Numbered from the stretch's first letter, positions 3,003 through 59,545 are shown. The stretch is 64,000 nucleotides of DNA from an uncultured Candidatus Saccharibacteria bacterium (GCA_964358005.1 CAYHNH010000002.1:18596-82595), one strand, 5' to 3'. The notes: generated by a model from the sequence alone, not told the origin. Translations and numbers: made by a program.

Positions 3003-3003
3003 A

Positions 3004-26637: not shown

Positions 26638-27324
26638 GTGCGACGTAGGACTTCTATGCAGAAATGTACACATAACGACATCTCCATCATCATCCCCTTT
26701 TATAACGAGGAGGACAATGTGGAGCCGGTCATAAGAGAGGTTATGGAAAAAGTTCCGGGTGCTGAAATAGTCGCCATTGACGATGGCTCGACCGATCGCA
26801 CTGCCAGTGAGCTCCGAAAATTCCCTACCCTAAGGGTAGTCACCTTTTTTGAGAACCTTGGACAGGGGTTTGCCATTTACGCCGGGCTCGGCAGAGCGGC
26901 TAACGAGCGGTGTGTTGTTATGGATGGCGATGGTCAGTATGATCCCCTGTCTGTTATAGGTCTCGCCGATGGTCTGGACTCCGTTCACCTAGTCTGCGGG
27001 CGGCGTATGAATAGGAGCGACAGAGCTAGCGCGATTTTTGCTTCTAGATTCTCAAATTCGGTCCGCAGACTCATTTTCGGCGATCAAATCATGGACACCG
27101 GAGGTATAAAAGCCATAAGACGTTCCACCGCCCTGGACCTCCTCTGGCCTTTTGAGGGATTACACAGATATATAGCTTCCATATTCTTCCGTGCAGGGCT
27201 TCCTATGTCCGAGGTACCTGTGAATCATCGACCGAGGCTGTTCGGCACGACCAAATATACGCATTCCGGGAGAGCAATGAGAGGCCTGGTCGATCTAGTG
27301 ATGGTAAGATGCCAGATACGATGA
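26638..27324 (+). CDS. family 2 glycosyltransferase (polyprenol-phosphate sugar transferase, DPM1/ArnC-like)
   Basis: GT2 motifs (ISIIIPFYNEEDNV; AIDDGSTDRT; VVMDGDGQYDP). Confidence 0.85.
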   Translation: MRRRTSMQKCTHNDISIIIPFYNEEDNVEPVIREVMEKVPGAEIVAIDDGSTDRTASELRKFPTLRVVTFFENLGQGFAIYAGLGRAANERCVVMDGDGQYDPLSVIGLADGLDSVHLVCGRRMNRSDRASAIFASRFSNSVRRLIFGDQIMDTGGIKAIRRSTALDLLWPFEGLHRYIASIFFRAGLPMSEVPVNHRPRLFGTTKYTHSGRAMRGLVDLVMVRCQIR

Positions 27325-27623
27325 CGGGTAACATCCTGAACACGGCCACCCAGATAGCTACGATATGGACTGTAATAGGCCTCGTAGGCGCAGTGATGTT
27401 CACTTCTCGCTGGTTTGTACAGTTCTTGCATTCCCGCACAAAAGGAGTTTCGTCTGTACCGCCGCTATTTTGGGTCATGAGCGCGCTCGGCAGCGTCGCT
27501 ACTTTAGCCTATTTCATATTCGGCAACCCTGATCTCATAGGTATCATATCGAATCTCTTCCCTCTTTTCGTCTCGGTTTATAATCTTATCCTTATATCTA
27601 GACAGAAAGACAAGGTTGAATGA
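27309..27623 (+). CDS. small membrane protein, possible lipid-A-disaccharide synthase N-terminal (LAB_N) domain
   Basis: 104 aa with three TM helices. It overlaps the GT2 stop. This pairing is typical of GT2/LAB_N two-component polyprenol-P glycosyltransferases. Confidence 0.5.
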   Translation: MPDTMTGNILNTATQIATIWTVIGLVGAVMFTSRWFVQFLHSRTKGVSSVPPLFWVMSALGSVATLAYFIFGNPDLIGIISNLFPLFVSVYNLILISRQKDKVE

Positions 27624-29325: not shown

Positions 29326-29359
29326 GCAAAAAAAGGCCGGCGAACTAAATCACCGGCCC
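29326..29359 (-). terminator. rho-independent terminator
   Basis: On the minus strand, GGCCGG-loop-CCGGCC is followed by TTTTTTT, downstream of the 29381..30349 gene. Confidence 0.5.
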
Positions 29360-29380: not shown

Positions 29381-30349
29381 CTACGGAGCGGAGGCGATGC
29401 GGACGTCTGACCGGCGCTTCATGTAGGGCTGGATTATCTCCGCCTTGACCATGATGTGCCGAATCGAGGGGCCATCTCGGACATTGAAAACTAGATCGCC
29501 TAGTTCGGTGAACACCGCGCCGAGGATGACCATACCGGCCTTCATGCCGGCATCCGCGTATGGCTTGTCAGCCTTGACGCTGACGACGCGGAGACCGACG
29601 AGATTGCCATCGCCATCACGCTCGTTCTTGATCTCCATCCACGTCTTGATCTCATCGACGATGAACGGCTTCATTACGAGAGCCTCCCCTTCCGTCACGA
29701 TCGGGGCCCGCCAGTCCAGGATCAGATCCGGACGGCTGGCGATGGATTTCGGGAGAGGTAGCGTCACCTTGTGCATCTGTGACACCCTGGAACGGAACTC
29801 TTCAGCGCTCCTGGTCGAATCCTTGAATCCGACCGTGAATTTGCCCGGTCCGAGCTCTTGGACGAACCAGCGCGAATCGGAAAACCGATACCAGAGCCCG
29901 TGGACGACAGTGCGGTCGCCGGTCTTTTTCGTGTTGATGGCGACTGGCTCCGCGCGATCTCGATCGAGCTTCCGTGCTGTTACACGCCAGGTTTCCTTGA
30001 GGACATCTTCCGTAGACATCCCCTCAGGAAGAACGAACGGGGCCTCACTGCGGACATAGGCTAGGAAGACCGGTGTCCGTTTTTTCGAAGCGGACCAATA
30101 GACCTTCCAGCCAGTGAGCGCGTCATTCGAGATGATCGGCTCGTAGCTGATGATCTGCGCATTTGGCGTGACATTCATCCAGCGATCGACCATCACGGTC
30201 GAACTGAACGCCTGTCGGCCGATCGTCTCCACTGGGAGCGGGCGATACAGCTGAATCACCTGAATCTGCGTATCCACAGACTCTCCGGCAAATGCCTGGG
30301 GAAAGATCCCCAGCATGAGCAATGCAAAGAACAAGCGAATCATTTTCAT
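29381..30349 (-). CDS. secreted hypothetical protein
   Basis: Signal peptide (MKMIRLFFALLMLGIFPQAFA). Start chosen at the internal Met of the track ORF. Confidence 0.55.
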   Translation of the reverse strand: MKMIRLFFALLMLGIFPQAFAGESVDTQIQVIQLYRPLPVETIGRQAFSSTVMVDRWMNVTPNAQIISYEPIISNDALTGWKVYWSASKKRTPVFLAYVRSEAPFVLPEGMSTEDVLKETWRVTARKLDRDRAEPVAINTKKTGDRTVVHGLWYRFSDSRWFVQELGPGKFTVGFKDSTRSAEEFRSRVSQMHKVTLPLPKSIASRPDLILDWRAPIVTEGEALVMKPFIVDEIKTWMEIKNERDGDGNLVGLRVVSVKADKPYADAGMKAGMVILGAVFTELGDLVFNVRDGPSIRHIMVKAEIIQPYMKRRSDVRIASAP

Positions 30350-30436
30350 TTTCGATTCCTCCAAATTTATGTGGTTTGTGGGAACTATGTTTAGTCGGAA
30401 TATATCACATCTAAGAGGAAATATCAAGCCCCCCGC

Positions 30437-31705
30437 TCAGAATCTATAAACCCATATTTGACCGGATGGCGACGATCCATGGCTGTAAAAAAGCAATCTT
30501 ATCCGACTGTTATCCACAATGTAATGCATCCTATTATTCCTTAGCATTTTGAAAACATACCCGTCGATAACTATAAAGCCGTGACTATTCTCGATTATGC
30601 CTTTGAGCTGCTCTAGTGTGCGGATCGGATTGACCCCGCTATAAAAGTCGGCTTCCCTTTCTGACATGCTTTGTGCTGGGATCCAGAGACCATAACGGCC
30701 AAGGTAGAGGTTCGCGAGAGCTGGATGAATCGAGATGATCACGTCATCAGGCCGCATGATTTGATGTATGAGTCCGTAGGCACCGTTGTAATCTGGTTGG
30801 GGAGAAACTAGATTGATGGCATAGGCTTTTCTCGGTATGAAATTATAAAATGGTGCTACCACTGACACCAGGATGAGAAATGCAATCAACGATCTAACGC
30901 GCTTGGGAAGCCTATTGGCCAGCGTAAGATCTACTACCTTCATACACATGTAGACAGCAAGCACGGTCCATAGGGGTAGAAATGGAAATAGCACATATCT
31001 AGGAAGCATCACCCACATATCAAGAGCGAGCAATATCGAAATATAGCCAACAAGGATCACAAAAATTAGGTACGCCACTCTTTTTTTTGACTGAAGGATG
31101 AATGACCTAGGACGGTCATGTAGCATCAGAACAAATGCGGGGAGAAATGCCAACGCCACCCAATGAGAAAGCGCGGCCAGGATAAAGAATACCATCGTCA
31201 AAGCTAGGTCTGATCGTCGCCTACTTTCAAAATATTTCCAAAGGAAAAGAGTGGTAAGAACGATAAATACCGCCAGTGCCGCATATCCCCTAGCCTGACG
31301 TGACCATGCAATCTCATAGTAAAGAAATGCGACGATAAACGCGCTCGCAAGTGACACGTCTGCCCTACTAAACAGCGCACGTGCGAGAGCATATACGCAA
31401 TATATGAGCAACGTGCCAAACAAAACCCCAGGCAACCTGACTACCCATGGATTGAACGGGTCGAATCCAAAGATTTTTATAGTGAGAGCCGCCGCGTATA
31501 CGCTTACGAAGTTATTCGTATACAAGGATCCAGAGCCCATTAAGGGGTAGCCTCGGTCCAATACAGCATGAGCGGCATGCACTGTATATGCCTCATCGAG
31601 CCAGAGCGGCTGGCAACCTAGACAATAGGCTCTAAGAAAAAAACCCGACACTATCAAAGCGCCCAGTACAAGATATCGCCAGTGACTAGTGCAAAAATTC
31701 TTCAA
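30437..31705 (-). CDS. GT-C glycosyltransferase, family 39/83-like (PMT/ArnT-type)
   Basis: 422-aa polytopic membrane protein. The first loop carries the DE motif and an aromatic-rich segment (LWLDEAYTVHAAHAVLDRGYPL). Confidence 0.75.
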   Translation of the reverse strand: MKNFCTSHWRYLVLGALIVSGFFLRAYCLGCQPLWLDEAYTVHAAHAVLDRGYPLMGSGSLYTNNFVSVYAAALTIKIFGFDPFNPWVVRLPGVLFGTLLIYCVYALARALFSRADVSLASAFIVAFLYYEIAWSRQARGYAALAVFIVLTTLFLWKYFESRRRSDLALTMVFFILAALSHWVALAFLPAFVLMLHDRPRSFILQSKKRVAYLIFVILVGYISILLALDMWVMLPRYVLFPFLPLWTVLAVYMCMKVVDLTLANRLPKRVRSLIAFLILVSVVAPFYNFIPRKAYAINLVSPQPDYNGAYGLIHQIMRPDDVIISIHPALANLYLGRYGLWIPAQSMSEREADFYSGVNPIRTLEQLKGIIENSHGFIVIDGYVFKMLRNNRMHYIVDNSRIRLLFYSHGSSPSGQIWVYRF

Positions 31706-31709
31706 TCAG

Positions 31710-32195
31710 TTAGTCAGGATACAACACTATGAAGCCTGCCGGCTTGCGGCCGTCATTGCAGGAATATGTCCGAGTCTGAAAACCCCGAGGAGGGACATAC
31801 TGGGGCATGATGTCTGAAATCGCAAGGTTCTTCGAGCCCTTTGCTGGTATCATGACAGTCGTCGAACCAAACGTAAGTTTTACAGTTGAGGTTGCGGCCA
31901 AATTCAGAAACTCGACACGCTCATCCGGAAACATCTTCAGGACGGGTACACTGGCCTTGCAGGTGGAGTCTATATACACCTTGTTCGTCTGGACAGCGGA
32001 CGTCACTGCGATACCAAGACGCTTTGACAAGGACTCATCTGTGACATTTCTGGTGAAATTGGATTCAAAGAGCACCTTAGAGTCCGCAAGACGTGATTTG
32101 CCGGACAATTGGCCCTGAAAGAATCCGTACAAATAGCCAGCAACAACTGCTACGATGAGGATGGCTGACAGAGCTACGTAGATAAGCTTATTCAT
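31710..32195 (-). CDS. hypothetical membrane-anchored protein
   Basis: 161 aa with an N-terminal TM helix. It overlaps the start of the downstream GT39 gene, so it is probably operonic. Confidence 0.5.
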   Translation of the reverse strand: MNKLIYVALSAILIVAVVAGYLYGFFQGQLSGKSRLADSKVLFESNFTRNVTDESLSKRLGIAVTSAVQTNKVYIDSTCKASVPVLKMFPDERVEFLNLAATSTVKLTFGSTTVMIPAKGSKNLAISDIMPQYVPPRGFQTRTYSCNDGRKPAGFIVLYPD

Positions 32196-32205
32196 GATTT
32201 ATAGA

Positions 32206-33468
32206 TTATATGCACTGGATGTCCCACGAATCGCATTCCGCGCCGCATGACATACTTGTTCCAGTAACCGTACACCCATCAAGAACATCTCCTATATACT
32301 CACCGTAGTCATTGTATGCTGGCGAATAAGTGCAATCCATCTTGCTGCACGAGCAACCGTCCCCAGAGCAATCCATGTCACCTTCGTCGCAAGAGCATGT
32401 TATCGTGTATGACACACAGACTTCTTGTTCTATACACCCACCACCCCCTCCTCCACCACCGGTCGGTGGTTCCGAAGGTGGTTCTGAAGGCGCCTCAGAT
32501 GGCGGCTCTGAAGGAGCTTCCGAGGGTGGTTCTGAAGGAGGAGTTGAAGGCGGCTCGGTTGGTGGTTCCGAGGGTGGATCAGAAGGAGGTGTCGAGGGTG
32601 GTTCCGACGGCGGTTCTGAAGGAGGAGTCGAAGGCGGCTCTGAAGGAGCTTCTGAGGGCGGTTCTGAAGGAGGAGTTGAAGGTGGCTCGGATGGTGGTAC
32701 CGAAGGAGGTTCAGATGGCGGCACACTTGGCTCTGGGGTAGGTGTAGATCCTCCACAAGCGGCCGTTCCATAGTCACTGCAACCAAGGTCACAATGATCG
32801 CCGCAGACAGTCGAACCGTCGCTACCAGTGGCTCCACACGAGGCATTTGCGCAAGGATTGGTGCATACAGGCAGCCCAGCCAATGGGCAACCGGCATCGC
32901 AAGAATCGCCGCAAGTCGTCACACCGTCGCTGCCGGTCTGGCCGCAACTCTTTCCGTCACAGACACCTACGCACGCCGCCGTTCCAGCATCTGGACACCC
33001 AGTATCGCAGTGGCTACCACAGGTGGTCGAGCCGTCAGTGCCAGTCTCGCCGCAATCATACCCGCTAGGACAGGCGCAAGCGGCGGTTCCGGCATCGGGA
33101 CAGCCTGTGTCGCAGCTGCTGCCGCAGGTCGTCACACCGTCCGACCCGGTATCTCCACAGGAGACACCGGTGCAGACATCCACTCCACAATTATTCAAGG
33201 AAACGTTCGGAGCACCGTTGTTCACAATAGAAAGCCACTCATTTTGGGTCTTTGTGCCTATGAAAAGGTTCTTGGAATTGGCATTGTCGACATCTCTACA
33301 GATGCTGTACTCGTCTATGGTCTCCACAGCCCCCGCTCCGACATCATACCAGTTGTAATTAGCCGCCAAGGCGGGTGTAATCTGAAATGAGAAAAATGAG
33401 AAAACAGCCACCGCAGCGAACGCGATCCTAAGAGCCTTGAATACTGATGTATATACGTTTCTCTTCAT
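32206..33468 (-). CDS. secreted cysteine-rich repeat protein with (PPSE)n low-complexity linker
   Basis: Signal peptide, then four roughly 40-aa Cys-rich modules (SCG.TGSDG.TTCG..CD.GCP.AG), then about 25 tandem PPSEPPS-type repeats, a Gly8 run, and a Cys-rich C-terminus. Confidence 0.8.
   Translation of the reverse strand: MKRNVYTSVFKALRIAFAAVAVFSFFSFQITPALAANYNWYDVGAGAVETIDEYSICRDVDNANSKNLFIGTKTQNEWLSIVNNGAPNVSLNNCGVDVCTGVSCGDTGSDGVTTCGSSCDTGCPDAGTAACACPSGYDCGETGTDGSTTCGSHCDTGCPDAGTAACVGVCDGKSCGQTGSDGVTTCGDSCDAGCPLAGLPVCTNPCANASCGATGSDGSTVCGDHCDLGCSDYGTAACGGSTPTPEPSVPPSEPPSVPPSEPPSTPPSEPPSEAPSEPPSTPPSEPPSEPPSTPPSDPPSEPPTEPPSTPPSEPPSEAPSEPPSEAPSEPPSEPPTGGGGGGGGCIEQEVCVSYTITCSCDEGDMDCSGDGCSCSKMDCTYSPAYNDYGEYIGDVLDGCTVTGTSMSCGAECDSWDIQCI
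32461..32735. repeat. 12-nt periodic tandem repeat (coding; PPSE-type peptide repeat)
   Basis: The unit ggtggttctgaa(ggn) is repeated about 23 times. This repeat produces the false ORFs in several alternative frames. Confidence 0.85.
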
Positions 33469-33854
33469 TGTGTTTTATAGTAAATTCTGCCGACATCCTT
33501 CATCTGGTCACAATCATAAGACATCGAACCTGGGGTTTTGAAAAAACCTAGGTTGACCAATTTCTTCGAGTTGGCCGGAATGACGTACTTGTTATCGATC
33601 CCGAAATAAATTGCATGCTGCCTCCTGTCGCTGTTCTTGAATGTGATCCTCGTGCCAGCTGCGGCTGGAAGCTTCACCATCTGCGGATCAGGCTCGCATC
33701 CGGTTATGTTCACCACATCTGTGACTGCCTGCCCGGCGACTGGTGAGCGGGCGTCTTTGATAGAAGAAATATATCCCCAATACATGAGGAGGCCTAGAAT
33801 CAAAATAGCAACAGCCACTTCCAGCGCTAAGGCTTTTTTAGGTTGGGTATCCAC
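33465..33854 (-). CDS. hypothetical membrane-anchored protein (possible cupredoxin-like beta domain)
   Basis: 129 aa with an N-terminal TM helix. It overlaps the start of the downstream gene by 4 nt. Confidence 0.5.
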   Translation of the reverse strand: MDTQPKKALALEVAVAILILGLLMYWGYISSIKDARSPVAGQAVTDVVNITGCEPDPQMVKLPAAAGTRITFKNSDRRQHAIYFGIDNKYVIPANSKKLVNLGFFKTPGSMSYDCDQMKDVGRIYYKTQ

Positions 33855-33917
33855 TTCCCGATAAGTTTACCTCATTGGGCCACTTTTAGGGCCTTTGCAC
33901 TGTGGATATCGTGACAT

Positions 33918-33950
33918 GAAGAAACCCCTCCGGAAGGAGGGGTTTCTTTG
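33918..33950 (-). terminator. hairpin terminator (GAAACCCCTCC ggaa GGAGGGGTTTC)
   Basis: A perfect 11-bp stem lies downstream of the 33965..34441 gene. The flanking T-rich tracts are partly within the stem. Confidence 0.4.
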
Positions 33951-33964
33951 ATCCATCGGATGGA

Positions 33965-34441
33965 TTATTTCTGGGCCAAATCCTTCGGAGTTCCCCAGCA
34001 TGCCTTGGAGGAAGCCCACGGCGAAGTGCCAAATTTATCATAAAGATGCTTGGCGTAGGCGATGTTGCCCTCTATTGAATAGATGTCAACGCCGAGCTTG
34101 ACGGCATCCTCAGCGTGGTATTTTTCATTGATCTGCATGACCCCCACGTCAGCCGAATTCACTAGCCCGCGTATGACGCGGCCATCGGGACCATACTGGC
34201 GGAAGGTGGACTCACAGCGCGCAATCTCAACGAGAATGGGCGCATCCGAGAACTCCCTCTTGAGGAAAGCCTCAACCTTTTTTGCATCCGTAAGAGTCCT
34301 AGATATGGGCGCAGGCTGAGCTGGGAAAGCCTCGTTTATTTCTGCATTCACATGACCTGCTCCGTAGAGCGAAGCCATAAGGAATGCGGCACCTGTTGCG
34401 GCTTCAATCATGTTTAATAAAAAACGAGAGCCTGTAAACAT
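33965..34441 (-). CDS. lysozyme-like / lytic transglycosylase-like domain protein
   Basis: 158 aa with a signal/TM N-terminus and an ES...GVMQI pattern (IARCESTFRQY...DVGVMQINEKYH) like the SLT catalytic core. Confidence 0.5.
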   Translation of the reverse strand: MFTGSRFLLNMIEAATGAAFLMASLYGAGHVNAEINEAFPAQPAPISRTLTDAKKVEAFLKREFSDAPILVEIARCESTFRQYGPDGRVIRGLVNSADVGVMQINEKYHAEDAVKLGVDIYSIEGNIAYAKHLYDKFGTSPWASSKACWGTPKDLAQK

Positions 34442-34595
34442 GGTGTTTACTTAGCTCAGTTTTGTGATATAAGTATAGCACCTTTGGACTCATTCGTCAA
34501 TACCTAATCGTAGGGTATCCTTATTTAGAGCCATTCTCTGGACTTACTCCACAGCATTTTTGGTCATTTGGCAATAGTCACGTATAATTGGGGCT

Positions 34596-35999
34596 GTGGC
34601 CCCCCTATTTATCCTTATCACGAGCGCTGTCGCTCATTTTTGGAACTTCGGCTTCCCTGCTTCCATAGTCTTCGATGAGGTCTACTTCGGCCGTTTTGTG
34701 GCAGATTACTGGCACGGCACATACTTCTTCGACGTCCACCCACCACTCTCGAGACTGCTCATAGCTATATTCGGTAAACTCACAAGCATCGATCAGATAC
34801 CGACGGAGTGGCTCGCGGTCGGTGGAGATCTCTCGCCGGCCATGACCGCCCTGCGATTCCTACCCACACTAGCAGGAACTCTTCTGCCTGTCGTCATCTA
34901 CTTTATATGCAGGAATTTCAAATTCTCGAAAGTCTCGTCAGCGGTCGCAGCCCTGCTGATATGCTTCGAGAACTCGCTCCTAGTCCACTCGCGTTTCATA
35001 ATGCAGGAAAGCATGCTCATCTTATTCGGTTTTTTGGCGATACTCTTCTATCAGAAATATAAGATCGACGGCAAAAAGGGCTGGTTCGCCCTCTCCGCCG
35101 TGTTCATCGCATGCTCGATCTCCTCAAAATGGATCGGGCTTTCATATCTAGCGGTGATCATAGTCCTGGAGGCGTGGGATCAGATGCATAAACATGGAGT
35201 CGCTCATCGGATTAGGAGAAGCATAGTGGAGCTCATCAAGGTGGGATCGATCTACCTAGCTTTTATCGCAGTCATCTATAGCAGCTCGTTTGCGCTCCAC
35301 TTTGCCCTACTGCCCAAAACAGGCTCTGGCGACGGATTCATGACGCCAGGATTCCAGAAAACGCTCACTGGTAATAGATACGAGAATGATCAACTTCTAA
35401 GCACTCCAAATTTCTTCGAGAAGCTGATTGAGATCAATAAGCAGCTGTACCTGTCCCAGAAGAGCATCACCACAGCGCACCCTTCTGGTACAAAATGGTA
35501 CACATGGCCGATCATGCAGCGCGGCGTATACCTTTGGCATAACAATGACTGGTCTGCGCGTGAGGAAAAGAACGAGCTATACATCCTTGGCAACCCGCCT
35601 ATTTATTGGCTGGGTACGCTTTCTATAGTTTTTCTCATTATCTACACGATGTGGCTTGCGATAAGGCGCTTCAAAAAGCGCGCATGGGCTACTGTTGATC
35701 CAGACAAAAACAAGCTCCTGCTTTTCTTGCTATTCGGTTACTTGATGAATCTTCTTCCCTATTTGTTTATAGGCAGGACGCTCTTTCTCTACCATTATGA
35801 GACAGCTCTCGTATTCAGCATCATAGCCATTGCCGCAGTTTTGGAATATTTCTGTCCTACCGAGAAGCGGACCCGGGTTGCAATAGTCCTTGTTACGACA
35901 GCCTTCCTGATATTTTTATACTTCAGCCCGCTAACGTACGGGACTCCGATAACACCGAAGGAGCTTGATAAAAGAATGTGGTTGTCGACCTGGCGTTAG
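34596..35999 (+). CDS. dolichyl-phosphate-mannose--protein mannosyltransferase family (GT39, PMT-like)
   Basis: PMT signature DEVYFGRF...FFDVHPPL with multiple TM helices. It has a GTG start. A TATAAT at 34583-34588 lies 7 nt upstream. Confidence 0.8.
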   Translation: MAPLFILITSAVAHFWNFGFPASIVFDEVYFGRFVADYWHGTYFFDVHPPLSRLLIAIFGKLTSIDQIPTEWLAVGGDLSPAMTALRFLPTLAGTLLPVVIYFICRNFKFSKVSSAVAALLICFENSLLVHSRFIMQESMLILFGFLAILFYQKYKIDGKKGWFALSAVFIACSISSKWIGLSYLAVIIVLEAWDQMHKHGVAHRIRRSIVELIKVGSIYLAFIAVIYSSSFALHFALLPKTGSGDGFMTPGFQKTLTGNRYENDQLLSTPNFFEKLIEINKQLYLSQKSITTAHPSGTKWYTWPIMQRGVYLWHNNDWSAREEKNELYILGNPPIYWLGTLSIVFLIIYTMWLAIRRFKKRAWATVDPDKNKLLLFLLFGYLMNLLPYLFIGRTLFLYHYETALVFSIIAIAAVLEYFCPTEKRTRVAIVLVTTAFLIFLYFSPLTYGTPITPKELDKRMWLSTWR

Positions 36000-36033: not shown

Positions 36034-37668
36034 TTACTTTGTTTTCAAAACAAGCGTCGATCCTGACGAGTAAACTGTCTCGTAGGTATCCTTAAGTAGC
36101 GGATCAATCTTAAAACTCTTGGACGCACCTGCGTCTACTATGATATGAGAAATGTTGTACTTGTTGATAATCGCGCCAGCATCGCGGGCATTCTCATATA
36201 CCTTCTGCATATCGGTCTTACGTACGGATCCATCTAGACCATAGCTCCATATCCACCCAGGGTATCCTTGAACTACGCTCCGACCGGCTAAAGAGAACAC
36301 CGGATTGTTGTGGTTCAAACCAGTGAGGAAAACGCTGTCTTTCGGAGTATCGCGTCTGATGAAATCAGCTAGCTCCATATCCGCTCTTGAGAACAGCCGC
36401 GTGCTGGAATTCAGCTCACGGATGGAGACAAGGACGCCCACCGGAATCATCAGGACAATGAGGCACAGTGACGCAGCTCTTCGAAGCCAACCATTTTTCC
36501 ATAGATGTTCGAGCAGGAACGCGGTCATGACGCAAGATATCAAAAAGAATATGACTATGAATTTCGTGTTGTCCCAGGCATTCGGCTGGAACACTACGGC
36601 ATTCCCAACCACAAAAAGAAAGATGGCTCCGTTAAAGAAGGTCCGAAATCTCATCGGCGCAACAAGGTAGGCCGCAATGAAGACCGGGATATAGATGAGC
36701 AGATTCTTGAACCAGAATATTATCGGATTGGCTTCACCGAAGAATCCCAGGTGTGCGCCTGGAGACTTATCTGTCGGAAATATTAGCCACATCTGGGCAG
36801 CTGCCAGAACTATGATCGGCAAGCCGAAATAGATCAACCAACGCTTTACGATCATGTCTAATACTGCTCTCTTTCTGTACACTAGAATGATCTCTCCGCA
36901 GAACATGGCAAAGGCAATCAGACCCAAACTAATGAACGTATGCAGATGAACGAGTGGTAGAGCACACAGAACAAGCGAAAAGATAAGCAGATCTCGTTGG
37001 GTCTTCCCTTCCCAATAGCGCCAAAGGAAATATACGGCTACTAGACCTATAGTCAACCCGAATATGAACGCCCTCTGCGGCAAGATAAAATCGCTTATGA
37101 CATTTGAGAATACGACATTTGCGCCCTTCAGATACGAATAGTTCGTCGACTGATGTAGAAGCGCGTACAGGAGCGGCTTCCCTTCTCTTATATAATCAGA
37201 AATGAAATAGAAAAGCCCCCAAAGGCTCCCGCCGAACAAAAATATGATCGGCGTAAAGAATGAGCCTATCGCGCTCTTTGTGATCTTGAAAGACACGACC
37301 CAGAGACATAATATGAAAGCCATTATCGCAAGGAATGTCGGCCAAAGGAACGCATTGCGTGGCGACGCCCCAAGACTCATGAGAAGGCCGCTTATATAAT
37401 CCGGGACAAAGGGATACGAGACGGAAGTGCCTGAGAAGACTGGGTTGTCATTGAGAGTCTTAGATAGTCCCCTCAGAGCGAAGCTCGACCCCAAGGCCAT
37501 ATGTCCCGGAAGATCGCCCCAGACATTGCTAGCTGAGTACAGGCCATCAGGTTTCTCATAAAGATAGTGAGATGAGCATAGATTCCAGAAGAATATGCCG
37601 AACAGCATGTAGGCACAAAAGAATATGCCGAACAGCGTTTTATTGCTTTTTATGCGCTCAAGGATCAT
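36034..37668 (-). CDS. large polytopic membrane protein, possible GT-C-fold glycosyltransferase
   Basis: More than 12 predicted TM helices plus a C-terminal soluble domain. Start set at the internal Met (MILERIK...) so that it does not overlap rpmA. Confidence 0.5.
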   Translation of the reverse strand: MILERIKSNKTLFGIFFCAYMLFGIFFWNLCSSHYLYEKPDGLYSASNVWGDLPGHMALGSSFALRGLSKTLNDNPVFSGTSVSYPFVPDYISGLLMSLGASPRNAFLWPTFLAIMAFILCLWVVSFKITKSAIGSFFTPIIFLFGGSLWGLFYFISDYIREGKPLLYALLHQSTNYSYLKGANVVFSNVISDFILPQRAFIFGLTIGLVAVYFLWRYWEGKTQRDLLIFSLVLCALPLVHLHTFISLGLIAFAMFCGEIILVYRKRAVLDMIVKRWLIYFGLPIIVLAAAQMWLIFPTDKSPGAHLGFFGEANPIIFWFKNLLIYIPVFIAAYLVAPMRFRTFFNGAIFLFVVGNAVVFQPNAWDNTKFIVIFFLISCVMTAFLLEHLWKNGWLRRAASLCLIVLMIPVGVLVSIRELNSSTRLFSRADMELADFIRRDTPKDSVFLTGLNHNNPVFSLAGRSVVQGYPGWIWSYGLDGSVRKTDMQKVYENARDAGAIINKYNISHIIVDAGASKSFKIDPLLKDTYETVYSSGSTLVLKTK

Positions 37669-37745
37669 GTAATAAGGAAATTTTAGCACGACTAGCGCTA
37701 AAAACAGCTGTGTGTTATGATATTTCGACCTAATAAAACACCTAT

Positions 37746-38018
37746 ATGGCACATCGCAAAGCGGAAGGCACAACAAAAAACGGGCGTGATTCAAACCCGA
37801 AATACCTAGGCGTCAAGATAAACCACGGCCAGGCTGTCGGCGTAGGTCAGATCATCATCCGCCAGCGCGGCACAGACGTACTCCCAGGCAGGAATGTTGG
37901 TACAGGCAAGGACTATACCCTCTTCGCCTTGAAGGACGGCAAGGTCTCTTTTGGTACCAAGCGCAAGACTAGCTACAACAACGACATCGAGCGCAAGAAG
38001 ATAGTGCACGTCGTCTAG
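37746..38018 (+). CDS. rpmA: 50S ribosomal protein L27
   Basis: 90 aa ([24 protein letters not shown]...IIIRQRGT...[15 protein letters not shown]). Confidence 0.9.
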
Positions 38019-38169: not shown

Positions 38170-39663
38170 CTATACGTTTTGGAAAATCGATATGCTGGCA
38201 AAAAAGCAAATTGAGCAAAGGATGAATAAATAAATAACCGATACAAGCAAACCAGCGAAAAATCCACTGAATCTCGACCCCTTAGATCTAAGGTCAGCGA
38301 TTATATAAGCCAAAAGAGCTGAAACAGGGATGACTATCGGGTAAACGAAACGGAAATCTGAACTCGGAAAATAAGGGTAGAGATATCGTCCAACAACAGC
38401 TGACACAATCAAAAGCGCGATCGAGAATAGGGTGAGCACTCGCATAGGCGCATCGGATTGAATCGCAAAAAAATCCCTAGTGAATCCTTTTGCAATAAAC
38501 ATAAGCCCGACCACCATGGCCAACAGCATAAGAATAAGAAGGTAGCTCATCAGAATCGCCTGAAATGCAAACGTATTTCCATCAAAACGATACTCTCCAA
38601 AAAGAGAGCTCTTTAGGAAAACATTCAGGAAGTACTGCCGCCCAGTGGTATCGTGGCTTAGGTCCATGAATGGATACTGAACAAAAGACTGCAGGTCGAA
38701 ACTGATGAAATTTTTGATATCATTTGTCGTAAGTACATCAGTCATTAAAATTGCATTAGGATTCAACTCCGATCTAAAATCAAAAGCCTTGTTCCCATAA
38801 AACTTGCTATGTCTAAGACCTGCAAAACACAATAAGATCAATACCGCTGGCAACATTATCTTGCAGACATCGATCAGTATCTCTTTCTTGCTTTTGGCTA
38901 GGATGAGCTTAAGCAAAATCGCAATAATAATAACAGCGAGCAGCACGAGACCGGTACCCTTGGTAAGCAGAGAAGCGATCAGGAAAATAACTGACAATAG
39001 TAAGCTTTTCCATCGGGCGTCCTTGAACCATTTTGTGATGAAATAAGCTCCGCCAGCTATAAAAAAATATGATAAAGCGTCGTTATTTATTGTAACTGAG
39101 GTGATGATCCCCGCAGGCCAGAAGATGAGCAGCATCGCTGAAAGATTAAAATATATATCGTTTGTTCCCTCTGGGATAAACAAACGCAATAGCTTAATCC
39201 CAAAATATAGGAAACCGACACTAGCGAGAAGCGATAGCAGCTGTAAAATCAACAATCCTTCACCATCATTAGAACAAGAGCTGAAATAACATACAGGGCT
39301 CACACTCATGTAATATAAAGGCGGATGGAAACCTTCCCAGCAATCGTTAGCTGATGGGAGGGAGTGATTGCTTGATATGTAATTGATATTGCAGATATGG
39401 CCTTGCACATCGTGACCGCGTACAAATGGGGGCGTTTCGCTAAGATATGCAATACGCAGAAGCAAGCCCGCGAGAAGAATCAGCGTTACCAGGTAACTGC
39501 CGGCAATAGGTTTCTTCCTAGCTATGTATAGGAGAACAATAGCGCTAGTCAACGCCAGGATTATAGGAATGTATGGTGCTGCTACAAAATTAGCGCTGTG
39601 GAAAGAATTTACTAGGATCATCAGGAAAAGAACTATCAGTCCGATGAAAGCTAGATTTTTCAC
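38170..39663 (-). CDS. GT-C glycosyltransferase, PMT/ArnT-like (family 39/83)
   Basis: 497-aa polytopic membrane protein with a first-loop motif (RGHDVQGH...WEGFHPPLYY) resembling the PMT/ArnT DE-HPPL region. Confidence 0.65.
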   Translation of the reverse strand: MKNLAFIGLIVLFLMILVNSFHSANFVAAPYIPIILALTSAIVLLYIARKKPIAGSYLVTLILLAGLLLRIAYLSETPPFVRGHDVQGHICNINYISSNHSLPSANDCWEGFHPPLYYMSVSPVCYFSSCSNDGEGLLILQLLSLLASVGFLYFGIKLLRLFIPEGTNDIYFNLSAMLLIFWPAGIITSVTINNDALSYFFIAGGAYFITKWFKDARWKSLLLSVIFLIASLLTKGTGLVLLAVIIIAILLKLILAKSKKEILIDVCKIMLPAVLILLCFAGLRHSKFYGNKAFDFRSELNPNAILMTDVLTTNDIKNFISFDLQSFVQYPFMDLSHDTTGRQYFLNVFLKSSLFGEYRFDGNTFAFQAILMSYLLILMLLAMVVGLMFIAKGFTRDFFAIQSDAPMRVLTLFSIALLIVSAVVGRYLYPYFPSSDFRFVYPIVIPVSALLAYIIADLRSKGSRFSGFFAGLLVSVIYLFILCSICFFASISIFQNV

Positions 39664-39728: not shown

Positions 39729-40445
39729 ATGGCAACCCCTATGATGAAAATGTTAAGGATCGCCAGGGCGTCAGGGTCACCTGAATCATATTATAATTCC
39801 ATTGCTGGTTTATATGACCATGGAAAAAAGAAGAACCTCTATTATTTTGATAATCTAGTTAGTCTTTATAGATTTTTTATACCTACTGGAAGGAATATAT
39901 TGGAGATTGGCTGTGGGACTGGCGACCTTATAACTAAGCTCGATGCGCGCGAGGCGCTTGGGATAGATTTGAGCGCTGAAATGATAAAAACTGCGCAAAG
40001 AAAATATCATAACCTCAAAAAAATCAGATTCGAACGCATGGACATAACATCTTCCTCCGAATTATTTCGAACCGAGTACATAATGATAGTCGATGTGCTT
40101 GAACATGTGATCGATGTGCCTAAATTCATCAAGCAGGTTTATATACGCGCCCCAAGAGAAGCAAGGGTGATCATCTCAGTCGCAAATCCGATCTGGGAGC
40201 CATTTTTAATGCTAGCTGAAAAATTACGCATGAAGATCCCCGAAGGACCCCACAAACGCCTTACCATTAAGAAAACCGAGGAAATCTATGGCCAAGCTGG
40301 CTTTCTGATCGAGCAAAAAGGCTATAGACTCCTTGTACCAAAAAGACTTCCATTTTCGGATTGGATAAATGAGCGATTTTATAGGAGCAGACTGATGGGT
40401 CACCTAGGCCTAGTGGTATTCTGGGTTTTAGTGAAGCGAACCTAA
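39729..40445 (+). CDS. class I SAM-dependent methyltransferase
   Basis: Motif I (ILEIGCGTGDL) and post-I acidic residues; 238 aa. Confidence 0.75.
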   Translation: MATPMMKMLRIARASGSPESYYNSIAGLYDHGKKKNLYYFDNLVSLYRFFIPTGRNILEIGCGTGDLITKLDAREALGIDLSAEMIKTAQRKYHNLKKIRFERMDITSSSELFRTEYIMIVDVLEHVIDVPKFIKQVYIRAPREARVIISVANPIWEPFLMLAEKLRMKIPEGPHKRLTIKKTEEIYGQAGFLIEQKGYRLLVPKRLPFSDWINERFYRSRLMGHLGLVVFWVLVKRT

Positions 40446-55537: not shown

Positions 55538-56125
55538 ATGCATCCCACATTTACCTTTGACGCCGACGCATTCGCGCGCGTCCAAAGGATCCTTAGCCTG
55601 AGATCAGACGACATCGCGCACATGCTAGCGACTGACAGATGCCTAGTGATCGGCAGAACCGGGCTGGGCAACATCCAGATCCTCTTCTGGAGCCAAGACG
55701 ACCGGAAATTCTTCGTTGCCGAGGTGATCGAGCTCGAAAGACGCGTAATCTCGATCGAGCTACTGACCCGGAACCATCCCAAGGTGGAGGAGGATGACCT
55801 CCTAGCCATGATCAGCCAAAGCTCTCGTGAATCAGCCTGCAAGAGACAGCGGCGGGAGAGGAGACAGCCGACCAATCCCCAAAACTACATCTTCACTTTT
55901 TCGCTCGGTCGGCCGGGCGCGGTGCCGCGGATAAAAAGGGTGAAGATACCTGTCAGCGATTTTCCGAGCTATGTTAGGGACCCGACCGGTCTCGAACGCG
56001 AGCGCGCTTTGATCGAGCGCCTCCAGTTCCTGATCGCGCAGGAGATCCAGCCGGGAGAGAATCTCCTCGGCATCAGAGTGAGCTCTGGTCAAAATGCTTG
56101 GCGGTTGCCCTTCAATCTGCCCTAG
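55538..56125 (+). CDS. hypothetical protein
   Basis: ORF divergent from truD and followed by a terminator. No recognised domain. Confidence 0.35.
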   Translation: MHPTFTFDADAFARVQRILSLRSDDIAHMLATDRCLVIGRTGLGNIQILFWSQDDRKFFVAEVIELERRVISIELLTRNHPKVEEDDLLAMISQSSRESACKRQRRERRQPTNPQNYIFTFSLGRPGAVPRIKRVKIPVSDFPSYVRDPTGLERERALIERLQFLIAQEIQPGENLLGIRVSSGQNAWRLPFNLP

Positions 56126-56130
56126 TTACA

Positions 56131-56162
56131 CAACCGGCGGCTTTGCCTCCGGTTTTATTGTT
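56131..56162 (+). terminator. rho-independent terminator
   Basis: AACCGGCGG ctttg CCTCCGGTT TTATTGTT. Confidence 0.5.
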
Positions 56163-56178
56163 CACGGAAATAACCACT

Positions 56179-57792
56179 CTACGCTTTCCTAAATGGCTCC
56201 AATTCCACCACGAATGTCGAGCCCTTGCCTTCTCCGGCTGATTCCGCCCTTATGGTGCCATGATGTGCCTCCACCATCTGCTTGGCCACGAACAGTCCGA
56301 GTCCGGTGCCCTTGATGTTGACCTTGTTGGCATTGTTGGCTCGCGAGAATTTCTGGAAGAGATGCGGCAATATCTCCGGATCTATGCCTATGCCAGTGTC
56401 CTTGATCTCAAATATGATGACCTGCCTCTTGTGATCGAATGACAGAGTAACTGCAACCGAGCCGGAAGGCGTGTATTTCACCGAATTATCTACGAGGTTG
56501 GCTATGACCTGCTTCAGCTTGTCGCGGTCAGCGGTTATGCGGTAATCGGTACCGTTGTTCTCGGCAGCGAAACTGAAGTTCAAGCCCTTACCCTCAATGT
56601 TCGGCTTGAGCTCGGCTATGACGTCCTCGACCATGAGTTTGAGGTCAATGGTCTCGAATGTATATTTCATCGTTCCGAGCTCTATCCTGCTGATATTAAG
56701 GTAGTCGTTAACTATACTGACCAGTGTGTTCGTAGAATCAAATATGCGCTCTATGCCCTCCTTGGCCGCCGGCGGCAGTTCTCCCATGTCGCCTTCGAGC
56801 AATAGAGAGCCGTAACCCTTCATGGCCGTAAGCGGCGCGCGCAGCTGATGCGTAGCGAACGACACGAACTCTGACTTCTGCCTATCCAGCTCCGTGAGGC
56901 GCGTATTGGCCTTCTCCAGATCATCTGCCAGCTTTTGGATGCGTTCGCGTTGTTCAATCTCGTTAAACACATTCTTTACCAACCAAATTCCAAATATAAC
57001 AGTCAAAACAAGGATAACTCCACCAATAATTGCATCCTCAAAACTCTGTGCAAGTACAACCCTAAATAGTAAGGTTATCCAGATCGTTGCTGTCAGCAAT
57101 TGAGCTGTTATAACCCTAATATCAAACAGCTTATATTTTAAAATCGCATAGGCAATAATGAGTGGATAAAATGCAAATAATATCACTGGAAACGGTGGAA
57201 TCAGTACATTGAAGGTCAGAAGGAAAACACTACTACCACCTATAAATCCAGCTACCGATGAAAAAAGGATGTACTTAAGTCTGTGACCTTCCTCTTTTGA
57301 AACCTTCTTTATCTTTAATGATAGTAATATCAACGCAAAAATTACCGTCGCAAAAAAGTAAACAGTAAATGCAACATACAGCGGCCCTGCATTTGGTACA
57401 TAGGGCAAAGTTCCCTTAGAGAATACATCGGTAACAAATAATACAGAAGGCGTAACGGATGCAAAATATATAGCTATTATTCCAAAAACAAATAAAAAGG
57501 GCTTATATTTTTTTAATTCTTCAATAACAGTAATTATAAAAAACAAATAAAAAAATGGAATAAATGATGCACCGATATGTAAAATAATATCGCTTAAAAC
57601 TGCGGCTTCTTTACTTGAGGCTATTAGCATACTGTAATAACCAAAACTCCATATGCCTGTTGATATAGAGAGCAAAAGCCAAATTATGCTTTTAAGTTGC
57701 TTCGAGTTACTTAAAAAAACCAACAATCCAGAACCGAGAGCAACTAAACCACCTATAAAAAGAGACAAGCTATAGTATGTAAAGAAAAACAT
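56179..57792 (-). CDS. sensor histidine kinase with N-terminal 7TM receptor domain (orphan)
   Basis: 7 TM helices, a coiled-coil linker, a HisKA H-box (SFATHQLRAPL), and HATPase_c N/G1/G2 boxes. Confidence 0.85.
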   Translation of the reverse strand: MFFFTYYSLSLFIGGLVALGSGLLVFLSNSKQLKSIIWLLLSISTGIWSFGYYSMLIASSKEAAVLSDIILHIGASFIPFFYLFFIITVIEELKKYKPFLFVFGIIAIYFASVTPSVLFVTDVFSKGTLPYVPNAGPLYVAFTVYFFATVIFALILLSLKIKKVSKEEGHRLKYILFSSVAGFIGGSSVFLLTFNVLIPPFPVILFAFYPLIIAYAILKYKLFDIRVITAQLLTATIWITLLFRVVLAQSFEDAIIGGVILVLTVIFGIWLVKNVFNEIEQRERIQKLADDLEKANTRLTELDRQKSEFVSFATHQLRAPLTAMKGYGSLLLEGDMGELPPAAKEGIERIFDSTNTLVSIVNDYLNISRIELGTMKYTFETIDLKLMVEDVIAELKPNIEGKGLNFSFAAENNGTDYRITADRDKLKQVIANLVDNSVKYTPSGSVAVTLSFDHKRQVIIFEIKDTGIGIDPEILPHLFQKFSRANNANKVNIKGTGLGLFVAKQMVEAHHGTIRAESAGEGKGSTFVVELEPFRKA

Positions 57793-57815
57793 GTTCTGTG
57801 GATTGATTATAACAT

Positions 57816-59471: not shown

Positions 59472-59545
59472 TTAATTGGGTTAAACCAGGGTAGTGGATA
59501 TACGAGTATTATTGTATCATAGGAATTTGACCACTACTTATAGTT

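What the first reader, a model, noticed from the sequence alone, without database searches (positions are those of the whole stretch)
30437..33468. Ser/Pro-rich (PPSE)n surface protein encoded next to a GT39 glycosyltransferase
The 420-aa secreted protein (32206-33468) has four Cys-rich roughly 40-aa modules, then about 25 tandem PPSEPPS/PPSEAPS repeats, a Gly8 run, and a Cys-rich C-terminus.

A short membrane-anchored gene sits between it and the GT39 enzyme at 30437-31705, and these genes overlap head-to-tail. PMT-family enzymes O-mannosylate Ser/Thr in Pro-rich linkers in actinobacteria and eukaryotes. So the repeat region is a plausible in-cis substrate.
Basis: inference. Interest (0 to 1): 0.6.

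Follow-up and report, generated by a model that had tools for sequence, protein, structure and literature searches.

The report
Secreted Cys/PPSE protein beside two glycosyltransferases
A groundwater ultra-small (CPR) bacterium encodes a secreted, disulfide-rich protein with a Pro-Ser stalk inside a conserved operon that holds an orphan membrane glycosyltransferase, but the true protein O-mannosyltransferase (GT39) most likely to sugar-coat that stalk is a different gene just upstream.

Summary
The 420-aa ORF is real. It has a signal peptide, a conserved N-domain, four 6-Cys modules, 24 xPPS tetrapeptides (96 aa), Gly8 and a 12-Cys C-domain. The enzyme at 30437-31705 is not demonstrably GT39. 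It passes only Pfam PMT_2, lacks PMT_4TMC, has no PDB sequence relative, and its fold is generic GT-C (Pmt4, AglB, ArnT and STT3 score alike). A genuine GT39 (PMT+PMT_4TMC; E 6e-43 to Pmt4) lies at 34596-35999, divergent from the operon.

The order Cys-modular protein, small TM protein, GT-C is kept in seven Paceibacterota lineages (GT-C 32-48% identical). Five of those lack any Pro/Ser/Thr linker, so the PPSE tract is not that enzyme's conserved target. The only other lineage with a linker at the same position (L021, 134-aa TP/SP tract) is also the only other locus with a GT39 gene, again divergent, 150 nt away.

Best reading: GT39 O-mannosylates the lineage-specific, length-variable stalk, and the operon GT-C, fed by a nearby GT2+LAB_N pair, has another acceptor in the cassette. 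All of this is inference from sequence. It is a new variant of known in-cis surface-protein O-glycosylation (actinobacterial PMT, streptococcal Pgf).

The parts
32206..33468 (-). 420-aa secreted Cys-modular/PPSE protein. Sub-parts: signal peptide 33364-33468; N-domain 33187-33363; four 6-Cys modules 32749-33186; PPSE linker 32461-32748; Gly8 32437-32460; 12-Cys C-domain 32209-32436.
   Evidence: Homologs in L004, L005, L006, L008, L021, L022.
32461..32748 (-). PPSE tract: 24 xPPS units, lineage-specific and variable in length. Candidate O-mannosylation stalk.
   Evidence: L003 lacks one 132-nt period and contigs L019/L020 break inside the tract. A linker at this position is absent from L004, L005, L006, L008 and L022, and present as a TP/SP tract in L021.
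34596..35999 (+). Genuine GT39 protein O-mannosyltransferase homolog (467 aa, no MIR domain). Proposed enzyme for the PPSE tract.
   Evidence: Pfam PMT 142 bits plus PMT_4TMC 153 bits. Pmt4 9i5k E 5.8e-43 and Pmt1 6p25 E 1.2e-40, with the VFDEV and FDVHPPL motifs aligned. 46% identical ortholog next to the L021 cassette.
34442..34595 (.). 154-bp divergent intergenic region between the operon and the GT39 gene. Holds the two best promoter-like sites of the region, back to back.
   Evidence: sites at 34500-34472(-) and 34561-34588(+), each 10 of 12 matches. The total site count is not above shuffles, so this is weak evidence.
33965..34441 (-). 158-aa lysozyme/SLT-like protein, first gene of the minus-strand unit. 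Not part of the conserved cassette.
   Evidence: Pfam SLT E 0.0054, below cutoff.
33465..33854 (-). 129-aa protein with one N-terminal TM helix and a cupredoxin-like domain. Overlaps the start of the Cys gene by 4 nt.
   Evidence: Weak Cupredoxin_1 hit, E 0.017. Homolog L008 6965-7414, E 3e-17.
31710..32195 (-). 161-aa protein: N-terminal TM anchor plus cupredoxin-like beta-sandwich with two invariant Cys (C79, C146). Invariant partner of the Cys-modular protein, directly upstream of the GT-C.
30437..31705 (-). 422-aa orphan PMT_2-type GT-C glycosyltransferase: TM core with a conserved D37-E38 in the first extracytoplasmic loop, plus a C-terminal soluble domain of about 120 aa.
   Evidence: The TTG start is supported by homolog alignment from residue 2-21 onward. 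The public 367-aa gene call P0001 covers only 87% of the ORF.
29381..30427 (-). 348-aa ORF, probably 322 aa from M27 with a signal peptide. Secreted protein with a weak PDZ-like C-terminus. Found in six of the seven GT-C loci; L022's contig ends at the GT-C.
   Evidence: (PDZ_6 weak in the L008 homolog).
29334..29359 (-). Strong intrinsic-terminator-like hairpin (10-bp stem, 7 GC pairs, T7) that ends the six-gene unit.
26638..27324 (+). 228-aa GT2 without TM segments, resembling polyprenyl-phosphate-sugar synthases. Candidate donor synthase.
   Evidence: Pfam Glycos_transf_2. Weak NCBIfam similarity to PgfS, ArnC, PpgS, AglJ. A GT2 convergent with or near the cassette is seen in L003, L005, L006, L008/9 and L022.
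27309..27623 (+). 104-aa LAB_N protein with three TM segments, overlapping the GT2 gene by 16 nt. Candidate membrane partner or flippase of the GT2.
   Evidence: Pfam LAB_N 69 bits. TM scan. A GT2-LAB_N pair is present in L005, L008/9 and L022.

Best explanation
The window comes from a Candidatus Paceibacterota (CPR) genome from Hainich groundwater. Genes 34441..29381 on the minus strand form one unit: a lysozyme-like protein, a TM-anchored cupredoxin-like protein, the Cys-modular/PPSE protein, a second TM-anchored cupredoxin-like protein, an orphan PMT_2-type GT-C, and a secreted PDZ-like protein.

The 420-aa product is Sec-exported. It consists of a family-specific N-domain, disulfide-rich modules and a Cys-rich C-domain. 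The PPSE tract is a recent, length-variable, probably disordered stalk inserted just before the Gly run.

Proposed mechanism (inferred): the GT2+LAB_N pair makes a polyprenyl-phosphate-hexose donor. The genuine GT39 at 34596-35999, transcribed divergently from the same 154-bp region, O-mannosylates Ser/Thr of the PPSE stalk during or after export, as actinobacterial GT39s do with Ser/Thr-rich linkers. The operon GT-C is kept next to this protein family whether or not a linker exists. It therefore transfers a sugar to a different, conserved acceptor, most likely a protein of the cassette (the folded Cys modules, the N- or C-domain, or the partner proteins).

Shown: the anatomy, the family assignments, the synteny, and the co-occurrence of GT39 with the linker. 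Inferred: every glycosylation step and the donor sugar.
For: Anatomy.

GT39 identity of 34596-35999: Pfam PMT plus PMT_4TMC; Pmt4, Pmt1 and Pmt2 at E 1e-24 to 6e-43 with the catalytic DE motif aligned.

The GT-C is a different, distant family: 26% identity over 182 aa to the GT39, E 3e-4; no PDB sequence hit.

Synteny of Cys-family protein, small TM protein and GT-C in the window/L003, L004, L005, L006/7, L008/9, L021 and L022, with GT-C identity of 32-48%. The seven GT-Cs cluster together in an NJ tree, apart from the non-cassette L001 and L002.

Linker and GT39 co-variation: tblastn with the window GT39 against all 22 loci hits only the window and L021 (46% identity). L021 is the only other locus whose family member has a Pro/Ser/Thr tract (134 aa; 45 P, 37 T, 21 S) at the same position before poly-Gly. 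Its C-domain is 57% identical to the window's, and its GT39 is divergent 150 nt upstream.

The PPSE protein is the only Pro/Ser/Thr-tract ORF in the 64 kb. Divergent promoter-like sites and a strong operon terminator.

Precedents: actinobacterial GT39s load a 69-aa Ser/Thr-rich linker with up to 65 hexoses (PMC11727336). A streptococcal GT2 plus GT-C glycosylates extracytoplasmic Ser/Thr-rich disordered regions, with the target adhesins encoded in the same cluster (PMC12041528).
Against: There is no experimental evidence of any glycan.

The GT39/linker co-variation rests on 2 loci with both features against 3 assessable loci with neither (L004, L008, L022). That is Fisher p = 0.1 by my own arithmetic, with no phylogenetic correction. 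Other lineages may carry GT39 elsewhere in the genome.

The PPSE tract is acidic (16 Glu). Known bacterial PMT substrates are mostly Pro/Thr/Ala-rich, so acceptor suitability is untested.

Family members found from the protein side lack a GT-C nearby: L010 and the P0034 contig, and the 7 N-domain loci. The GT-C is therefore accessory to the family, not obligatory.

More distant GT-C relatives (L001, L002) sit beside a Wzx-like flippase and other polytopic proteins, which is a glycopolymer context. The window also clusters cell-wall enzymes (amidase, M23 peptidase, FtsW/MurG), so adjacency could reflect general envelope-gene clustering.
Confidence: 0.5

Rival explanations
1. One reading: the operon GT-C at 30437-31705 is the enzyme that O-glycosylates Ser/Thr of the PPSE tract. 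It may act alone, or it may extend mannose first placed by the GT39.
Against: Five of the seven lineages with this GT-C have no linker at all, so the linker cannot explain why the enzyme is conserved. The enzyme fails the Pfam PMT cutoff, lacks PMT_4TMC and has no sequence relative among solved PMTs. A bona fide GT39 sits next door and tracks the linker.
Confidence: 0.15
2. This protein is not glycosylated. The PPSE tract is a bare, extended, protease-resistant spacer of variable length. The GT-Cs, including the GT39, act on other proteins or on envelope lipids or polymers, and adjacency reflects clustering of envelope genes in a small genome.
For: Four GT-C-type genes sit in a row, and peptidoglycan enzymes lie nearby. 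GT-C relatives in L001 and L002 lie next to a Wzx-like flippase. Family members elsewhere have no GT-C neighbour. Pro-rich repeats often serve as rigid spacers (general knowledge).
Against: The GT-C keeps its position inside the operon across 32-48% divergence, with gaps of a few bases or small overlaps after the small TM gene. GT39 and linker co-occur in both lineages that have either one. GT39 enzymes are known only as protein O-mannosyltransferases.
Confidence: 0.25
3. The operon GT-C modifies the small cupredoxin-like TM protein or the secreted PDZ-like protein rather than the Cys-modular protein.
For: The 348-aa family is present in six of the seven GT-C loci (L022's contig ends at the GT-C) and is absent from the GT-C-less L010. 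The small TM gene abuts or overlaps the GT-C start in L005, L006, L021 and L022.
Against: Neither protein has a Ser/Thr-rich region. The small TM protein also occurs in a cassette without a GT-C (L010). There is no direct evidence.
Confidence: 0.1

Closest known systems
Actinobacterial protein O-mannosylation (GT39 Pmt with a polyprenyl-P-mannose synthase; Mycobacterium, Corynebacterium, Cellulomonas, Streptomyces)
   Same: A bacterial GT39 without a MIR domain, and a Sec-exported substrate with a Pro- and Ser/Thr-rich inter-domain linker. Linkers of this kind are heavily mannosylated (PMC11727336). A GT2 candidate donor synthase is present.
   Different: The organism is a CPR bacterium. The enzyme is encoded divergently next to its candidate substrate. 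The linker is acidic (xPPS with Glu) rather than PT/PA-rich. A second, unrelated GT-C is embedded in the substrate's operon. Nothing is shown experimentally.
Streptococcal Pgf and GtrB/PgtC2 systems (a GT2 Und-P-sugar synthase plus YfhO-type GT-Cs that glycosylate Ser/Thr-rich extracytoplasmic regions; the pgf cluster encodes the adhesins Cnm, CnaB and CbpA)
   Same: The same logic: a GT2 plus GT-C route acting outside the membrane on surface proteins encoded in the same cluster (PMC12041528). PgfS is the top NCBIfam hit for the window GT2, although far below its cutoff.
   Different: The GT-C here is PMT_2-type, not YfhO. The partner proteins (cupredoxin-like anchors, PDZ-like protein, LAB_N) have no counterpart. 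In most lineages the target protein has no Ser/Thr-rich disordered region.
Pseudomonas aeruginosa TfpW (a GT-C encoded directly beside the group IV pilin gene that arabinosylates the pilin)
   Same: An accessory GT-C encoded in cis with a specific surface-protein substrate, and present only in some lineages of that protein family (bioRxiv 10.1101/2020.04.19.049825).
   Different: The GT-C family, the sugar and the substrate type are all different, and no pilin is involved here. The cassette does lie near type IV pilus genes in L006, L008 and L010.
ArnT / GT83 and other PMT_2 (PF13231) enzymes
   Different: No significant sequence similarity (E 4.1 with a profile). The operon context is secreted proteins, not lipid A genes.
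Eukaryotic domain-specific GT-C mannosyltransferases (DPY19 on TSRs; TMEM260 on IPT domains)
   Same: Relatives L004 and L008 carry true TSP1 repeats (WSGWGPCSASCGGGTQ) next to the same GT-C. DPY19 appears among the structural matches.
   Different: The window protein has no TSR and no WxxW motif. The N-domain W-x-x-C position is Tyr in the window and Phe in L021, so C-mannosylation at that site cannot be the conserved function.

Membership tests
   21.7 bits against a cutoff of 22.7. Only PMT_2 PF13231 passes, at 52.7 bits.
GT39 / PMT, tested on 30437-31705 | C-terminal four-TM region (PMT_4TMC, PF16192) | tested here: not met
GT39 / PMT, tested on 30437-31705 | Sequence relationship to solved PMTs | tested here: not met
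   phmmer finds no PDB hit at E<=1. A 16-sequence profile finds none either; ArnT appears only at E 4.1. Against the window's own GT39: 26% identity over 182 aa, E 3e-4.
GT39 / PMT, tested on 30437-31705 | PMT-like fold of the TM core | tested here: inconclusive
GT-C superfamily, tested on 30437-31705 | Polytopic GT-C fold with a conserved acidic motif in the first extracytoplasmic loop | tested here: met
   AF2 pLDDT 84.7, pTM 0.84. All top structural hits are GT-Cs. W35, D37 and E38 are at least 90% conserved in the family.
GT39 / PMT, tested on 34596-35999 | Pfam PMT and PMT_4TMC both present, with similarity to solved PMTs that includes the DE motif | tested here: met
   142 and 153 bits. 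9i5k E 5.8e-43 and 6p25_A E 1.2e-40, with 'ivfdevyfg' and 'yffdvhppl' aligned. The NCBIfam PrMnsylTfPmt equivalog scores only 50 bits against a cutoff of 800, so it is not an equivalog of the actinobacterial enzyme.
GT39 / PMT, tested on 34596-35999 | Protein O-mannosyltransferase activity with a polyprenyl-P-mannose donor | not testable with these tools
   Needs biochemistry.
GT83 / ArnT, tested on 30437-31705 | Sequence membership and a lipid A acceptor context | tested here: not met
   Profile against 5ezm gives E 4.1. No lpx or arn genes among the window ORFs scanned. The LAB_N name refers to a domain, not a pathway.
Three-component lipid-linked glycosylation (GT2 synthase + small membrane partner/flippase + GT-C; Gtr/Pgf-like logic) | Co-located GT2 polyprenyl-P-sugar synthase, small polytopic protein and GT-C | tested here: met
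   GT2 26638-27324, LAB_N 27309-27623 (3 TM segments) and GT-C 30437-31705. The same trio is seen in L005, L008/9 and L022. The function of LAB_N is inferred only.
YfhO-type protein O-glycosyltransferases (PgfM1/PgtC2) | YfhO domain | tested here: not met
   No YfhO hit in Pfam for any window GT-C.
Thrombospondin type 1 repeat proteins | TSP1 domain in the 420-aa protein | tested here: not met
   No Pfam family at E<=0.01, and only a DUF4179 hit at E 0.13. No WxxW motif. TSP1 is present only in relatives L004 (PF19030) and L008 (PF00090, weak).

The most novel reading that the evidence does not exclude
The operon's orphan PMT_2-type GT-C is a dedicated, domain-specific protein glycosyltransferase that modifies the folded, disulfide-rich modules of its co-encoded protein (CG modules here, TSR-like modules in relatives). 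That would make it a bacterial counterpart of eukaryotic DPY19, TMTC or TMEM260. In that case the cassette, together with the neighbouring GT39 acting on the stalk, would be a two-enzyme, two-site glycosylation system for a CPR surface protein.
Probability: 0.12. Interest if true: 0.8.

Novelty: new variant of a known kind. Interest (0 to 1): 0.45.

Why it matters
Bacterial GT39 enzymes have been studied experimentally mainly in Actinobacteria, and their native substrates and benefit remain unclear (PMC11727336). Here a CPR genome places a GT39 gene next to one obvious candidate substrate, and a second lineage repeats the arrangement. That gives a compact enzyme/substrate pair that can be cloned and tested.

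The locus also defines a small Paceibacterota-specific surface-protein cassette: Cys-modular protein, cupredoxin-like anchors and an orphan GT-C. This may bear on how these ultra-small, presumably host-attached bacteria build their surface.

For annotation, it shows that 'glycosyltransferase family 39 protein' labels on PMT_2-only proteins should not be read as PMT.

Tried and rejected
1. Word-indexed search with the N-terminal 240 aa found nothing at E<=1e-3. A GTDB genome scan with the same region also found nothing. Homologs emerged only through neighbourhoods of the GT-C.

2. Exact look-ups of the 420-aa and 422-aa products failed, probably because the public records call them differently.

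3. Single-sequence and profile searches of the PDB with the GT-C gave no significant hit.

4. A metagenome scan with the N-domain alone returned a much broader set. The N-domain heads many unrelated secreted proteins that follow S74 fibre-type proteins, and none of those has a GT-C. That sample is not a fair test of the sub-family.

5. The C-mannosylation idea was rejected for the window. The N-domain W-x-x-C site is Tyr here and Phe in L021, and there is no TSR.

6. A copper-site idea for the small proteins: the fold is cupredoxin-like, but only two Cys are invariant and no His or Met ligand is conserved. I left it as either a disulfide or an unknown site.

7. No S74 protein is encoded anywhere in the window (tblastn).

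8. The AFDB50 fold library was unavailable.

9. A literature search for LAB_N/PF07578 returned only unrelated papers.

10. The 586-aa and 348-aa neighbours have no PDB or Pfam relatives.
Full report
**1. Observation**

ORF 32206-33468 (minus strand) encodes 420 aa. Its parts are as follows:

- Residues 1-35 are a signal peptide ending ...TPALA|A.
- Residues 36-94 are a compact domain with two Cys.
- Residues 95-240 hold four modules of 33-34 aa with 6 Cys each. An example is CTGVSCGDTGSDGVTTCGSSCDTGCPDAGTAAC.
- Residues 241-336 are 24 four-residue units (EPPS x10, TPPS x4, EAPS x3, VPPS x2, EPPT x2 and three singletons). That is 44 Pro and 30 Ser+Thr in 96 aa.
- Residues 337-344 are Gly8.
- Residues 345-420 carry 12 Cys.

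TRF detects the DNA repeat at 32465-32715, with periods from 24 to 132 nt. No other ORF in the 64 kb has a comparable Pro/Ser/Thr tract.

A 161-aa protein with one N-terminal TM segment (31710-32195) separates this gene from the 422-aa polytopic protein at 30437-31705. The gaps are 10 and 4 nt, so these genes do not overlap. The upstream 129-aa gene (33465-33854) overlaps the start of the Cys gene by 4 nt.

The 'overlap' and the 'GT39' label are not.

**2. Source and setting**

The neighbouring genes are ordinary bacterial housekeeping genes: DnaK/DnaJ, several aminoacyl-tRNA synthetases, ScpA/B, FtsW, MurG and DnaB. Relatives of the GT-C come from Candidatus Paceibacterota/Parcubacteria MAGs. 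Identical proteins are on a 124-kb NCBI contig and on ENA contigs named Hain_H41_01um. That name indicates a groundwater 0.1-µm size fraction.

Independent assemblies treat the PPSE tract differently. L003 lacks exactly one 132-nt period (44 aa). L019 and L020 end inside the tract, and L020 has four point differences from the window, changing residues in the tract. The tract is either polymorphic in length or hard to assemble.

**3. Two different GT-C enzymes**

The 422-aa protein passes only Pfam PMT_2 (52.7 bits). It scores 21.7 for PMT against a cutoff of 22.7, and it has no PMT_4TMC. It has no PDB relative by phmmer or by a 16-sequence profile, where ArnT appears at E 4.1.

It is therefore a probably active GT-C of undetermined family.

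In contrast, 34596-35999 (plus strand, 467 aa) hits both PMT (142 bits) and PMT_4TMC (153 bits). It also hits solved Pmt4, Pmt1 and Pmt2 at E 6e-43 to 7e-24, with the DE and FDVHPPL motifs aligned and the MIR insertion missing. The two enzymes are only distantly related to each other: 26% identity over 182 aa, E 3e-4.

Two further polytopic proteins lie beyond the GT39: a 586-aa protein with no family, and a 497-aa protein with PMT_2 below cutoff. A methyltransferase follows.

**4. Is the pairing conserved?**

I fetched the neighbourhoods of the closest GT-C homologs and translated the flanks. Seven lineages, with GT-C identity of 32-48%, have a protein of the same family immediately upstream of a 160-183-aa TM-anchored protein, which directly abuts the GT-C: the window/L003, L004, L005, L006/7, L008/9, L021 and L022. 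In six of them the GT-C is followed by the ~330-360-aa secreted protein; L022's contig ends at the GT-C. A GT2 lies close by in L003, L005, L006, L008/9 and L022, with LAB_N next to it in all but L006.

The upstream proteins share several parts with the window protein, though not every member has every part (BLAST E 1e-13 to 4e-26):

- the N-domain (…EW/Y.x.C.NVxN…FVPT.T..EW.S…P.V.L..C)
- CG-type Cys modules
- a poly-Gly run of 5-13 residues
- the Cys-rich C-domain

An NJ tree groups the seven cassette GT-Cs together, away from L001 and L002. In those two loci the GT-C sits beside another polytopic protein and a Wzx-like flippase.

So the 'orthologous pair' test is passed, with one caveat: these loci were found through the GT-C. 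When I started from the protein side, P0027/L010 has the Cys protein and the small TM protein, followed by a second Cys-modular paralog and no GT-C. The P0034 contig shows no PMT_2 gene. Seven loci found with the N-domain alone have no GT-C either. There the N-domain heads very different secreted proteins, and six of these eight protein-side loci (L010-L017) have an S74 fibre-type protein upstream. The GT-C is therefore an accessory element, acquired in one clade of the family.

**5. What the GT-C does not explain, and what the GT39 does**

None of L004, L005, L006, L008 or L022 has a Pro/Ser/Thr linker. In the four that have a poly-Gly run, a Cys module abuts it directly; L022 has neither linker nor poly-Gly. 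The linker therefore cannot be the reason this GT-C is kept.

L021 is the exception. The public gene call there put a 'GVGSGV' ORF on the wrong strand. The sense strand (2467-3450) encodes a 327-aa family member with these parts:

- the N-domain
- a 134-aa TP/SP tract (45 Pro, 37 Thr, 21 Ser)
- Gly6
- a C-domain 57% identical to the window's

L021 is also the only locus besides the window that contains a GT39, 46% identical to the window's (E 5e-156). That gene is divergent and 150 nt from the family gene. tblastn of the window GT39 against all 22 loci hits nothing else.

In the window, the GT39 and the six-gene unit share a 154-bp region that holds the two best promoter-like sites, back to back. 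A strong terminator closes the unit after the 348-aa gene.

To summarise: two of two loci with a linker have an adjacent GT39. None of the three assessable loci without a linker does (L004, L008, L022). This is suggestive but small.

**6. Mechanism proposed**

What is shown: family assignments, topology, synteny and co-variation.

What is inferred, step by step:

- GT2 (26638-27324, no TM segment) together with the overlapping 3-TM LAB_N protein makes a polyprenyl-phosphate-hexose.
- The GT39 transfers mannose to Ser/Thr of the exported PPSE stalk. Actinobacterial GT39s do this on Ser/Thr-rich inter-domain linkers, with up to 65 hexoses on a 69-aa linker (PMC11727336).
- The operon GT-C modifies another acceptor that is conserved in the cassette.

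The logic of a GT2 plus a GT-C acting on surface proteins encoded in the same cluster is established for the streptococcal Pgf and GtrB/PgtC2 systems (PMC12041528). The logic of an accessory GT-C next to its substrate gene is established for TfpW.

**7. The accessory proteins**

The 129-aa protein is probably a distant paralog. It has a weak Cupredoxin_1 hit at E 0.017, and L6_165 matches L8_149 at E 9e-5. The roles of both proteins are unknown.

**8. Verdict**

The ORF and its architecture are real. The in-cis glycosylation idea is reasonable, but the enzyme was misassigned. The best-supported candidate enzyme for the PPSE tract is the GT39 at 34596-35999, and the operon GT-C has another target.

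This is a new variant of a known kind of system: extracytoplasmic O-glycosylation of surface proteins by lipid-linked-donor GT-Cs encoded in cis. It is seen here in a CPR bacterium and rests entirely on inference. Interest is moderate.

Noticed in passing
window 36034-37794(-), 38170-39663(-), 39729-40445(+): Beyond the GT39 lie two more polytopic GT-C-like proteins: a 586-aa protein with ~10 TM segments and no Pfam or PDB relative, and a 497-aa protein with PMT_2 at 22.8 bits, below cutoff. A SAM methyltransferase follows. That makes four GT-C-type genes within 9 kb. The 38-40 kb stretch has lower GC (41.5%).
   Followed up: partly
P0028-P0033 and P0036-P0038; L008 4827-6080; L004 187-645; L010 5839-7017; L022 1982-4102 and 4126-5361: Many Paceibacterota secreted proteins end in the same extreme C-terminal motif, P/x-F-x-E-[LIFY] (PRFQEL, PEFEEI, PSFNEI, PLFEEF, PDFREI and others). 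Several of these carry the ~36-aa repeat C.S..N.CG.TN.GTIQC.GSCSA..PANP.GYG. The motif may be a sorting or processing signal. The window protein lacks it.
   Followed up: no
L010-L017 (for example L012 7378-8667, L016 7893-10043): The ~58-aa N-domain of the window protein is a widespread N-terminal module on otherwise unrelated secreted proteins (Gly-rich, other Cys-rich and other bodies). In six of these eight loci an S74 (intramolecular chaperone, fibre-type) protein lies upstream. It looks like a common docking module. The window itself has no S74 gene.
   Followed up: partly
L004 1599-2624; L008 7414-9297: Bacterial family members contain true thrombospondin type 1 repeats with the eukaryotic WSxW and CSxSCG motifs (Pfam TSP1_ADAMTS and TSP_1), encoded next to a GT-C. 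L008 also has NYNP-type Cys modules.
   Followed up: partly
window 31710-32195(-) and 33465-33854(-): Both small proteins flanking the Cys gene are TM-anchored cupredoxin-like domains with two invariant Cys and no conserved His or Met copper ligands. The nearest solved analogs include the membrane-anchored Cu chaperone CupA.
   Followed up: partly
window 32461-32748; L003 1-636; L019; L020: The PPSE tract differs among assemblies from the same site. One has a 132-nt deletion, and two contigs break inside the tract, one of which carries point variants. This is either repeat-number polymorphism or assembly collapse.
   Followed up: partly
L021 2467-3450(+) versus the called ORF 2748-3191(-); L003 1302-2405; window 32316-32773(+): Gene-calling artefacts. 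In L021 the TP/SP-rich gene was missed and its antisense 'GVGSGV' ORF was called instead. The public 367-aa call of the window GT-C covers only 87% of the ORF, whereas the homologs align from residue 2-21 onward, a region that holds the conserved DE motif. Similar long antisense ORFs exist opposite the PPSE tract in the window.
   Followed up: yes
window 26638-27623(+): The GT2 has no TM segment, and its gene overlaps by 16 nt a 3-TM LAB_N protein. The pair recurs in L005, L008/9 and L022. LAB_N may be the membrane anchor or flippase partner of a split polyprenyl-P-sugar synthase.
   Followed up: no
L006 4502-7589; L008 13322-16400; L010 10855-14626: In relatives the cassette lies next to DsbA-like thiol oxidoreductase genes and type IV pilus genes (a PilB-type ATPase in all three, plus PilC in L010). 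This fits a disulfide-rich surface or appendage function.
   Followed up: no
window 56000-60000: A low-GC island (35-43% against ~52% elsewhere) holds one of two 7TM-sensor histidine kinases (56179-57792) and a 551-aa protein with no Pfam family (57816-59471). The second kinase (59546-61255) begins at its edge. Possibly acquired DNA.
   Followed up: no
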